Assembly: GCA_002633005.1 (NCBI GenBank)
Contig: NMRA01000122.1
Coordinates: forward strand, 1 to 60,371
DNA length: 60,371 nt
Source of the DNA: Phoronis australis
Taxonomy: Eukaryota > Animalia > Phoronida
Direction: 5' to 3'
Positions 24,086 to 27,100 of this stretch are shown piece after piece; the first letter of the stretch is position 1, and each line of letters starts with the position of its first letter. The translations under genes were made by a program, and so were the position numbers. Under the pieces are notes generated by a model. It searched no databases. It had not been told where the DNA came from and saw only the letters and a list, made by a program, of their open reading frames with translations.

Positions 24086-24127
24086 TTACTGCTTGAACAA
24101 GAGCCAAAAGGTTACCATGGGACGATC
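24086..24127 (-). CDS. rGC terminal exon 22
   Basis: ttcag| [13 protein letters not shown], matching the M.TYWL end motif of rGCs. Confidence 0.85.
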   Translation of the reverse strand, partial: DRPMVTFWLLFKQ

Positions 24128-27100
24128 CTGAAAAATAAACTCTGAAAATAAGGGTATCAGAGATTGAGTAGGCGACTGTATAGTCAACGATTTTACACGC
24201 TGGGTACACGTTGTACTCTACGGAAGCCAATATCCAAGCCTGACTCAATCGAAGTCAAAAGAAAACTATTTTGAAAGTGCAATACTTAAATTACTAAAAT
24301 TCAATGGGTCTCTGGTAACAAAAACATTGCATTTCAATGCAACTGCCGTCTATCAATGACACAATTGGTTTGGTGCCGTAACAGTACCTGAATCATGAAC
24401 ACGCCGCGTCTCTCAGTAACGTAGCCGCCTAGTTTTTGAAGGATATCATTGGTTGCCGAACTTAAGTGGATTTCACCCTCTGCAAATAAAGGGGCAATGA
24501 CGAAAATGAAAGTAAAAGATATGTGTTGTAATCTTGGATTACGTTGTAATATTTTATCACAGCTACTGTTGTACCATTCAAGCTTCAATAACACAATTTT
24601 CGACTGAAGTCGACTCTTATTAGACTCTCAGTTTTTATTTCTCGCGAAACACAAACTTTAAAAGTCAGACGTCGTTGCTGTTGCATCATAAACGTCATCG
24701 CAGCGCACCTTTTCCCATCGACTCCAGACTCTGCGAAATGTTCACGCTTTCTCCAAGCAAACAGTACCGCGGCCGCGTGTGACCGACGATGCCAGCACAC
24801 ACGGAACCCGTGTGAATGCCGATCCTGAGCTGAAGCTTGAACGTCCTCTTGTGGGGCACTACAAACATGGCTATAGCATCCCGTATTTCCAGAGACATGT
24901 TGGCTATTTCGGCAGCGTGGCGATCACCGTTCAAGATGGGTAAGCCACTAACCACCATGTAGGCATCGCCAATGGTCTCAACCTGAAAACTCATCATTAG
25001 CTGTCTGAAGTGCGGCGCAGACGAAAAATTACTAGCGGAGCTGCCCGCCTCAAGTGCTTGTAAGCTGAGAACACAGCTCACATTTGTGAGTGAAAACGAG
25101 ATAGCAGGCGAACTCAACTGTATGTCATAGACCACTTCCATTTGTTTGCCGGTAACCGGCATGGAGCGATGTATTCAGCTTACTGACACATGAGAGAGAT
25201 GACGGAGCGCGCAGCTCTGCGTTTGCGTCATACATAAGACAAACCAGATATTTTTAAAGCCGACTGAATGTTCTTCATACATCAGTTTTGATCATCTCAA
25301 ACAGCTTATTTGGAGATGAGCTCGGAATTACATATACCACTGTTTGGTCTATTATACCATTAAGAAAAGGTACATAACTACGAAAAAATTTGATTTAGGC
25401 CATCCACTGTTATCAAACGGTATCATCTTGTTCCTAATTCAATCATATGATCTGGCATTTCACTACTGCTTCCGACAAAGACTATTAACGCTTTTGCCGA
25501 TTCGCGTTTTTTCAGTAGTCGAGAATTCCAGGCGATTTATTATAACCGTGCAATTTCAATTGAAAAAACGATGGAGACGTATTGGCGTTGCTTCAGAAGA
25601 TCAAAATACGCCAAACGATAGTTTATAGGAGCTTTAATAGTAATCGTCACGTGATGATAGCCGCAGAAATTACTTATTTGGGATATCACATCGAGGCTGT
25701 AAATAGACCAAATAGTAATAAATGCTATACTTCAAATTTCTCGTACTACGTGATCGAAAGCTACAGTCAGTAATATCTACCTTCCACTGAAAGTTTACCT
25801 GAGTTTTTCGTTGACAAAAACATCACGTATCATTTATTGAATGTGGACTAACAGCAAATAGATTCTATTAAAGTTATGAAATAAGAGGGTATTTATAACT
25901 ACTAAACACTATGAGAAATGACAAGACATGCGTCGCCTCTATTACTTTAAAGAATGTCTTCAAAATGTAGACCTGCCTTGTACACATCGTAATGATCTAT
26001 GATACTATCGAAGAGCGTGTACAACTTGTTCAACATGTTGACTATCTCGAGCGGAGTGCTCTCTGACGAAATCACCGTGAAGCTCTTAATGTCGCTGAAG
26101 AAGATCGTCACACTTCGGAAGCACTCAGGGTCAACGTCTTTTCCAATTATTAGGCTCTCGGCTACCGACCTGGTGTGGAAAATCTTGTGAAACGTCAGGT
26201 GCCATCAAGCTAGCACACTCAATGAGAAGTATAGAACTACGGGTTTCAAACTGGAAAACCTAATACTGAAGGCCTCTCAAGGATTACTATTTTCAGGCAC
26301 ATTTTGCGTGTCTAAGATATCAGTGCCGCTTCGATGCTTTGAAGGTTAGCAGGTGATGAATCAAAATAGTGAAATGTTTGATGAGAGAACCCTTCTGATG
26401 AAAAAAGGATATACATGTAATTGTGAGGAAGCAACAACTGAGCTCGCCACCAACACAGCTATTGTATTAAAATTTTGGTCATTTTTGTTAAAAGACGCAC
26501 CTTATAGCCATGCGCGTGCGCGAGTGTACTTTTGAACCTGATCCGTCTCCTCCTCCCCAGACAAACCTTTAGGTACAAGTAGACCGCGTTTGTCTCATTA
26601 ATCCTGTCCCTTGTTCTCATCTATTCGATCCTAATTGATTTTCAACTTATTCTCATTCCCCCTATCCGGTTTGCTCCCTTGTCACCGGTTTCCCCAATAG
26701 GACGGTGGTACGGAAAAACACATTCCCAGTAGTTCTAAGAATGTTCAAAAATAGGTATTATCAGGAAGGCATTACGAAGGGCCGCTCTTTCTAATGGAAT
26801 ACGTTATTTTTTTCTCAATTGAGCAATAATTCTGCAATTAGTTTTGGAAAATAGCCAAAATCGTTGATCTAACACTTGACCCTTTCTGATAACGTCTTCC
26901 TAGTGTTATGAATCAACTCTAGAATTCATTGAAAAACAGCCTGATTAGTAATCTACGAGCCCTTGAACAACAGTAGACGTACAGCCTATAATCAGCAGTG
27001 CTCCTCTCTTTTGCCCTAGTGGTTTTACTCTTCTGTCACATCAGTTCTTCTATAAAACGGTTGAAAGCTCACTAACGCGAAATTTTTCTGCATTTGACTT

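What the first reader, a model, noticed from the sequence alone, without database searches (positions are those of the whole stretch)
24086..26169. Receptor guanylyl cyclase with a one-sided catalytic loss: candidate obligate-heterodimer or dominant-negative subunit
Seen: the ORF and splice sites are intact, but canonical CLFGDTVNTASRMES reads [15 protein letters not shown] (catalytic Arg to Ser) and KGKG.M.TYWL reads [10 protein letters not shown] (phosphate-binding Lys lost). Both metal-binding Asps (SDI, IGDAY), the RIGIH Arg, the guanine-specificity Glu (VET) and Cys (RYC), and the Asn are retained. Established: class III cyclase active sites form between two halves, with Asp/Asp/Arg from the C1/sGC-alpha side and Asn/Arg/Lys from the C2/sGC-beta side. 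Inference: the losses are confined to the beta side, so a homodimer should be weak or inactive. The protein could still complete one active site with a canonical rGC partner (an 'alpha-like' receptor subunit) or act as a modulator.
Basis: partly seen in the sequence, partly recalled or inferred. Interest (0 to 1): 0.8.

Follow-up and report, generated by a model that had tools for sequence, protein, structure and literature searches.

The report
Half-disabled receptor guanylyl cyclase subunit
An intact, expressed cell-surface signalling gene of an invertebrate animal has lost only one of the two halves of its cGMP-making site, so it likely works only when paired with a normal partner receptor, as is known in a roundworm; in the two samples that express it well, most spliced messages skip the main catalytic exon.

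Summary
Observation confirmed. The minus strand (53280-24086) carries a 23-exon, 1059-aa receptor guanylyl cyclase with an open frame. RNA reads support the sequence and the last exon, so Arg→Ser and Lys→Gln are real. The eight-residue signature is D-E-D-R-C-N-S-Q; 177 of 195 homologues read D-E-D-R-C-N-R-K. The damage is one-sided: 11 of 23 conserved columns changed in the beta-side segments, 3 of 54 elsewhere, 1 of 33 in the kinase-homology domain.

Most reads from the GC donor of exon 20 skip the 274-nt catalytic exon 21 (27 of 32), giving a frameshifted 929-aa product. The alpha-side loop after the first Asp is also changed (VG→KS). The idea is known: C. elegans ODR-1/DAF-11 is reported as an obligate heterodimer.

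Best reading (0.5): an alpha-like subunit that completes one active site with a canonical paralogue, its amount limited by exon skipping. Main rival (0.3): a folded but dead, decoy receptor. No orthologue or partner was found, and activity is untested. Arg-less cyclases also occur in an EGF-bearing clade that includes hydrozoans and in echinoderm NIT-cyclases.

The parts
24086..53280 (-). Whole gene: 23 exons, 3180-nt CDS, 1059-aa receptor guanylyl cyclase (signal peptide-like start, ANF-type ectodomain, one TM, kinase-homology domain, coiled coil, cyclase)
   Evidence: Open frame in a script model. 15 of 22 introns seen as RNA joints and 1 more by loose ends; 6 inferred from GT-AG and frame. 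Pfam hits on single exons.
37880..53280 (-). Exons 1-9: N-terminus and ANF-receptor-type ectodomain (aa 1-447)
   Evidence: Exon 3 hits PF01094 at E 3.5e-5, below the curated cut-off; 24% identity over 399 aa to P0083. Exon 1 was not covered by the reads laid.
37364..37442 (-). Exon 10: single transmembrane helix (about aa 450-473)
   Evidence: Hydropathy peak 2.59; both flanking joints in RNA
28174..35262 (-). Exons 13-18: juxtamembrane Ser/Thr stretch and kinase-homology domain; 32 of 33 conserved columns kept
   Evidence: joints
27385..27522 (-). Exon 19: dimerisation coiled coil; L832Q at a column that is Leu in all 141 homologues
   Evidence: joints with 89 and 43 reads
25977..26169 (-). 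Exon 20: first third of the cyclase; metal Asp886 (26093-26091) kept, followed by V888K and G889S; ends at a GC donor
   Evidence: GC..AG joints
24983..25976 (-). Intron 20, GC-AG, 994 nt; partly unspliced in the RNA
   Evidence: 5 joint reads to exon 21; intron depth 1-10
24709..24982 (-). Exon 21 (274 nt): Glu926, Asp930, Arg977, Cys998 and Asn1005 kept; Arg→Ser1009 (24730-24728). Skipped in most spliced reads.
   Evidence: 27 skip reads against 5 upstream and 15 downstream inclusion reads
24388..24479 (-). Exon 22: ends in Gln1046 (24390-24388) at the phosphate-binding Lys position; in the skip form it is read out of frame to a stop after 5 residues
24086..24127 (-). Exon 23: [17 protein letters not shown]; the loop after Gln1046 is one residue shorter than canonical
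   Evidence: 73 joint reads

Best explanation
This is an intact, transcribed receptor guanylyl cyclase that keeps the alpha-side catalytic residues and has lost the beta-side Arg and Lys, and it likely makes cGMP only as the alpha-like half of a heterodimer with a canonical paralogue. Shown: gene structure, residues, one-sided divergence, expression and exon-21 skipping. Established: class III active sites form between two subunits. Inferred: in a heterodimer, site 1 (this protein's Asp886, Asp930 and Arg977 with the partner's Glu, Cys, Asn, Arg and Lys) would be catalytic. Site 2 (the partner's Asp, Asp and Arg with this protein's Glu926, Cys998 and Asn1005) would bind nucleotide without efficient turnover. 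That would fix in the genes the catalytic/allosteric asymmetry reported for GC-A and GC-B. The protein would lend its own ectodomain and kinase-homology domain to the pair. Skipping of exon 21 would limit the full-length subunit, either through decay of the message (stop 74 nt before the last junction) or through a 929-aa receptor without a cyclase that could act as a dominant-negative.
For: Signature D-E-D-R-C-N-S-Q against Table 1 of PMC6005667. Changed conserved columns: 11 of 23 in beta-side segments, 3 of 54 elsewhere, Fisher P 4e-5, with the segments drawn after seeing the changes. Kinase-homology domain: 1 of 33 changed. End branch 0.75 for the whole cyclase (median 0.18) but 0.33 for the alpha half (median 0.20). 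The asymmetry lies inside the skipped exon, so the inclusion form looks constrained. Two alpha-type domains of the soluble cyclase P0005 show the same logic: Asp/Asp/Arg, Glu and Cys kept, Arg lost. Differences from other individuals: 21 in 2209 intron nt, 1 synonymous in 938 exon nt, P 0.008. Precedent: ODR-1/DAF-11 (passages of PMC5225109 and PMC8045692).
Against: No canonical partner is in the window, and no genome was held to look for one. No orthologue was found (best whole-length match 34%), so selection across species is untested. Only 5 of 32 reads from the exon-20 donor and 15 of 42 into exon 22 include exon 21. V888K and G889S alter the alpha-side loop after Asp886, and neither letter occurs there in 195 rows. 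Conservation of the alpha half could reflect folding alone. Exon 21 by itself shows 0 differences in 274 nt, which is not significant (P 0.16). In ODR-1/DAF-11 each monomer is said to supply essential residues; here the partner is assumed to be canonical.
Confidence: 0.5

Rival explanations
1. Non-catalytic receptor: the cyclase domain is a folded pseudoenzyme or is dispensable. The gene is kept for its ectodomain, kinase-homology domain and coiled coil, as a ligand decoy or a dominant-negative brake on a canonical receptor.
For: Most spliced reads skip exon 21 (27 of 32 and 27 of 42). The skip product keeps ectodomain, TM, kinase-homology domain and coiled coil (929 aa). The alpha-side loop is also changed. 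Dominant-negative GC-B2/B3 splice forms are described (passage of PMC4249455).
Against: All three alpha-side catalytic residues and the normal identity of residues 861-989 are kept while the beta side diverged. A dispensable exon should decay evenly. The skip stop lies 74 nt before the last junction, a likely decay signal (the 50-55 nt rule is recalled).
Confidence: 0.3
2. Low-activity homodimer with compensation: the new Lys888 beside the metal Asp and Arg1048 in the shortened loop take over phosphate binding, leaving a slow but self-sufficient cyclase.
For: Six of eight key residues are kept, including Asn. New basic residues sit at 888 and 1048. Lys or Ser at these loop positions occurs in other fetched cyclases of unknown activity (8 and 7 motifs).
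Against: Seven conserved columns in 1000-1010 and three in the KG loop are changed, against a median of 1 changed column per homologue. Both Arg and Lys are listed as phosphate stabilisers in homodimeric cyclases too.
Confidence: 0.13
3. A paralogue in early decay: relaxed selection, with leaky splicing as a symptom.
For: Long branches in both the cyclase (0.75) and kinase-homology (1.15) trees. Weak splice sites around exon 21. One amino-acid difference between individuals, F489C.
Against: 1059 codons open over 23 exons. Kinase-homology motifs intact. Exon differences depleted. Strong, sample-dependent expression: 209, 155 and 6 joint reads per 1000 million letters. Changes are clustered, not scattered.
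Confidence: 0.07

Closest known systems
C. elegans ODR-1/DAF-11 obligate heterodimeric receptor guanylyl cyclase
   Same: Receptor cyclases that lack key GTP- or Mg-binding residues and need a complementary subunit (passages of PMC5225109 and PMC8045692).
   Different: There both subunits are described as supplying essential residues; here the partner is unknown and may be canonical. Orthology was not tested. I did not see which residues each worm protein lacks (Morton 2004 and Murayama 2013 were seen only as citations).
Soluble guanylyl cyclase alpha subunit / adenylyl cyclase C1 domain
   Same: Keeps metal Asp, metal Asp, phosphate Arg, and also Glu and Cys; lacks the phosphate Arg and Lys (Table 1, PMC6005667).
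   Different: This protein keeps the ribose Asn, has receptor architecture, no haem domain, and is closer in sequence to NPR1 than to sGC alpha (104 vs 65 bits).
Vertebrate GC-A/GC-B (NPR1/NPR2) homodimeric receptors
   Same: Same domain order; gap-free alignment of exons 20-22 to NPR1. GC-A and GC-B are reported as asymmetric dimers with one catalytic and one allosteric site (PMC3765477, whole meeting abstract).
   Different: They carry all the catalytic residues in one chain (PMC8045692). This protein lacks two.
Dominant-negative GC-B2/GC-B3 splice forms
   Same: Alternative splicing yields inactive receptors that block the full-length form (passage of PMC4249455).
   Different: Those delete part of the kinase-homology domain or keep only ectodomain. 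Here a catalytic exon is skipped with a frameshift, and it is the majority spliced form in two samples.
Arg-less cyclases found here: EGF-bearing receptor clade (Hydractinia, Clytia, unnamed contigs) and echinoderm NIT-domain cyclases
   Same: Keep Asp/Asp/Arg and lose the position-7 Arg (to K, Q, S, D or H); some share GE[ST]VN.
   Different: Different architecture (EGF repeats, or NIT without kinase domain). Most keep the position-8 Lys. They form separate well-supported clades without this protein. A shared origin was not rejected by AU tests (P 0.54 and 0.31).

Membership tests
Receptor (particulate) guanylyl cyclase | Ectodomain - single TM - kinase-homology domain - coiled coil - class III cyclase | tested here: met
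   (the ANF hit is below the Pfam cut-off on a single exon)
Receptor (particulate) guanylyl cyclase | Guanine-specificity Glu and Cys | tested here: met
   Glu926 and Cys998
Canonical homodimeric receptor guanylyl cyclase | All eight catalytic positions present in one chain | tested here: not met
   D-E-D-R-C-N-S-Q; positions 7 and 8 lost
Alpha-like obligate-heterodimer subunit (ODR-1/DAF-11 type) | Alpha-side Asp, Asp and Arg kept; beta-side residues lost | tested here: met
   with the caveats that Asn is kept and V888K/G889S are changed
Alpha-like obligate-heterodimer subunit (ODR-1/DAF-11 type) | Inactive alone, active with a partner | not testable with these tools
   Needs an enzyme assay
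Alpha-like obligate-heterodimer subunit (ODR-1/DAF-11 type) | A co-expressed complementary paralogue in the same genome | tested here: inconclusive
   None in the 60-kb window; whole genome not held; genome index gave no answer
Alpha-like obligate-heterodimer subunit (ODR-1/DAF-11 type) | Pattern conserved in orthologues under purifying selection | tested here: inconclusive
   No orthologue found; within-species exon differences depleted
Soluble guanylyl cyclase alpha subunit | H-NOX/PAS N-terminus, no transmembrane helix | tested here: not met
   TM and kinase-homology domain present
EGF-bearing Arg-less receptor clade / echinoderm NIT-cyclases | EGF repeats or NIT domain, and placement inside the clade | tested here: not met
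   Ectodomain of about 450 aa aligns to plain ANF-type receptors; outside both starred clades, though AU tests do not reject union
Pseudogene | Disrupted frame, no transcription, neutral change | tested here: not met

The most novel reading that the evidence does not exclude
Receptor guanylyl cyclases have split into alpha-like and canonical subunits more than once in animals (nematodes, this lineage, an EGF-bearing clade that includes hydrozoans). In this gene, skipping of one exon from a GC donor switches the same ligand-binding receptor between an activating half-site subunit and a cyclase-less brake on its partner.
Probability: 0.2. Interest if true: 0.7.

Novelty: new variant of a known kind. 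Interest (0 to 1): 0.42.

Why it matters
Outside C. elegans, receptor guanylyl cyclases are treated as homodimers. A second animal lineage with a half-site subunit would make heterodimers a recurrent design. Genes annotated as 'NPR-like' could not then be assumed active, and one catalytic partner could serve several ligand-binding chains.

Tried and rejected
Sequence error or a different last exon: rejected. Pseudogene: largely rejected.

Orthologue hunts, all without a close relative: exon 21 against longer proteins (120 listed of 7771, best 68% identity); ectodomain exon 3 (33 candidates, none at E ≤ 10); a three-sequence GESVN profile; metagenome contigs (80 loci of 429, scan cut at 13 of 64 parts); ESM Atlas (generic PF00211 clusters only). 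These blanks are weak: proteins under 161 aa were not searched with exon 21, and unannotated genomes are missing.

No whole genome was held. The genome index gave no answer in six tries, so paralogues and related species were not seen. No indexed RNA holder was listed; the RNA runs laid came by species label. An alignment of separate exons to one scaffold protein was unusable and dropped.

The first idea that GESVN marks one conserved subfamily was not supported: carriers fall in separate clades with different domains, though AU tests do not reject a shared origin. All trees were quick LG+G4 on subsets (76 of 195, 50 of 116, 47 of 300 rows).

No structure or complex was predicted, because the domain spans four exons. 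Earlier-finding look-ups returned nothing. Literature searches listed no paper on this gene or on Arg-less receptor cyclases outside nematodes; the library lacks most subscription papers. PMC1435932 and bioRxiv 2023.08.02.551600 (passages only) added nothing on catalytic residues. No supplements were read.

Full report
Gene and sequence. The finding covers the last four exons of a minus-strand gene. Exons were placed from translations and from RNA joints. The script model has 23 exons from 53280 to 24086, 3180 nt, 1059 aa and one terminal stop. Fifteen of the 22 introns appear as joints in the tables and one more through loose ends. The protein has an ANF-type ectodomain, a hydrophobic helix near 450-473, a kinase-homology domain, a coiled coil and a class III cyclase. 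The organism is an unnamed animal. The best whole-length match among 365 fetched proteins is 34% (P0083, a hemichordate receptor), which is not an orthologue.

Exon 21 aligns gap-free to human NPR1, with Ser in place of the Arg of the conserved helix. Exon 22 ends in Gln where the Lys stands in 98% of 192 rows, and the next loop is one residue short. Three RNA runs and one DNA run list no differing letter in exons 20-23; the exons are well covered in X6, X7 and X1 and thinly in X8. The only listed joint from the exon-22 donor goes to the DRPMVTFWL exon (73 reads).

Which side is damaged. Table 1 of PMC6005667 (passages) assigns positions 1, 3 and 4 (Asp, Asp, Arg) to the alpha/C1 side and positions 2, 5, 6, 7 and 8 (Glu, Cys, Asn, Arg, Lys) to the beta/C2 side; PMC3591389 (passages) agrees. 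This protein reads D-E-D-R-C-N-S-Q. Of 195 aligned homologues, 177 read D-E-D-R-C-N-R-K, 12 lack the position-7 Arg, and none has non-basic residues at both 7 and 8. That set was enriched for Arg-less rows by my profile search; the unbiased rates were 1 of 120 proteins and 1 of 64 motifs in loci. Of 77 cyclase columns conserved at 90% or more, 14 are changed here (median 1 in others). Eleven of 23 lie in residues 990-1013 and 1042-1050, and 3 of 54 elsewhere (P 4e-5; segments chosen after seeing the list). The kinase-homology domain differs at 1 of 33 columns. Identity to canonical cyclases is normal in the alpha half (60% vs 64%) and below every canonical row in the beta half (42% vs 64%, lowest 48%). 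The exceptions are V888K and G889S right after the first Asp, V989I, and three coiled-coil changes including L832Q.

The exon-20 donor is GC. In X6 and X7, 27 reads join exon 20 directly to exon 22, 5 join it to exon 21, and 15 join exon 21 to exon 22. Skipping is 84% at the donor (95% interval 67-95) and 64% at the acceptor (48-78). Introns 19 and 20 are partly unspliced, while intron 18 has no reads. Exon 21 is 274 nt, so the skip shifts the frame to a 929-aa product with a stop 74 nt before the last junction. It keeps everything up to the first third of the cyclase. Exon 21 has one of the poorest pyrimidine tracts (7 of 14) and a weak donor by a crude count. The skipped exon still shows the one-sided pattern: 62% identity in its 5' part (norm 66%) and 51% in its 3' part (norm 86%, lowest 79%). 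I read this as constraint on the inclusion form; it is inference.

Selection and expression. Counting only X6/X7 differences in introns 19-20 and exons 18-23 (7 listed sites seen only in X1 or X8 were left out), there are 21 in 2209 intron nt and 1, synonymous, in 938 exon nt (P 0.008). Exon 21 alone is 0 in 274 (P 0.16). Upstream, one amino-acid difference (F489C) was seen, but one search showed only 40 of 400 sites. Thirteen constitutive joints give 209, 155 and 6 reads per 1000 million letters in X6, X7 and X8, so expression depends strongly on the sample; tissues are not given.

Relatives. No orthologue was found. The searches did show Arg-less cyclases in two other groups: EGF-bearing receptors (Hydractinia, Clytia, unnamed contigs; Arg to K, Q, S or D, in some also Asn to Lys) and echinoderm NIT-domain cyclases (Arg to K or H). 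Each forms a starred clade without this protein. AU tests on the alpha half do not reject joining it to either (P 0.54 and 0.31), so independent origin is likely from architecture but not shown.

Mechanism. Shown: residues, asymmetry, expression, skipping. Established: the active site lies between two subunits; GC-A and GC-B use one site for catalysis and one as an allosteric site (PMC3765477, whole meeting abstract); some C. elegans receptor cyclases lack key residues, and ODR-1 and DAF-11 work only together in a chimera test (passages of PMC5225109 and PMC8045692, section 12 of the first); inactive GC-B splice forms are dominant-negative (passage of PMC4249455). Inferred: a homodimer would have two sites without Arg and Lys and be weak or dead. 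A heterodimer with a canonical paralogue would have one complete site and one nucleotide-binding, poorly catalytic site. Skipping would lower the dose of the full subunit or yield a brake. I put this at 0.5, a non-catalytic decoy at 0.3, a compensated homodimer at 0.13 and decay at 0.07.

Verdict. It is a receptor guanylyl cyclase by architecture and fails the test for a self-sufficient homodimer. It looks like an sGC-alpha or ODR-1/DAF-11-type half-site subunit, but the defining biochemical test and the partner are missing, so membership of that class is not established. It is a new variant of a known kind, with majority skipping of the catalytic exon as the added feature. Interest 0.42.

Noticed in passing
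P0121 (L002:1-3450), P0123, P0126, P0127, P0136, P0143, P0156, P0208, P0252: A clade of EGF-repeat receptor guanylyl cyclases (named members: Hydractinia, Clytia) keeps Asp/Asp/Arg but lacks the catalytic Arg in all 8 rows placed in the tree; some also lose the Asn. It may be a conserved alpha-like subfamily and is testable in model hydrozoans.
   Followed up: partly
P0115, P0122, P0129, P0142, P0150: Echinoderm NIT-domain cyclases with Arg→Lys/His; the two sea-urchin proteins also lose the position-8 Lys, while crinoid paralogues mostly keep Arg. P0115 is a fragment placed with them by tree only.
   Followed up: partly
window 21519-23224 and 51392-52711: THAP-domain element (ORF 21951-22967, PF05485; opposite-strand ORF with a weak PF20478 hit) just past the gene's 3' end, with an inverted 85% copy in intron 1.
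   Followed up: partly
window 24028-24520: Run X8, where the gene is nearly silent, has opposite-strand reads (depth 1-4) over the gene's 3' end: a possible antisense transcript.
   Followed up: no
window 24983-25976 and 26170-27384: Introns 19 and 20 carry sense reads (depth 1-10) while intron 18 has none, which suggests selective retention around the cyclase exons.
   Followed up: partly
window 14709-16378: A 618-nt direct repeat (97%) flanks a 197-codon open frame (15269-15862) that looks like a retroelement fragment; the resemblance is recalled, not tested.
   Followed up: no
window 30370-30830: Long CTG-type triplet tract inside intron 16.
   Followed up: no
window 12100-18613 (+): Scattered plus-strand frames, including a Ser/Thr-rich 187-codon frame at 17082-17645, may be exons of a neighbouring secreted or membrane protein; no Pfam hit for that frame.
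   Followed up: no
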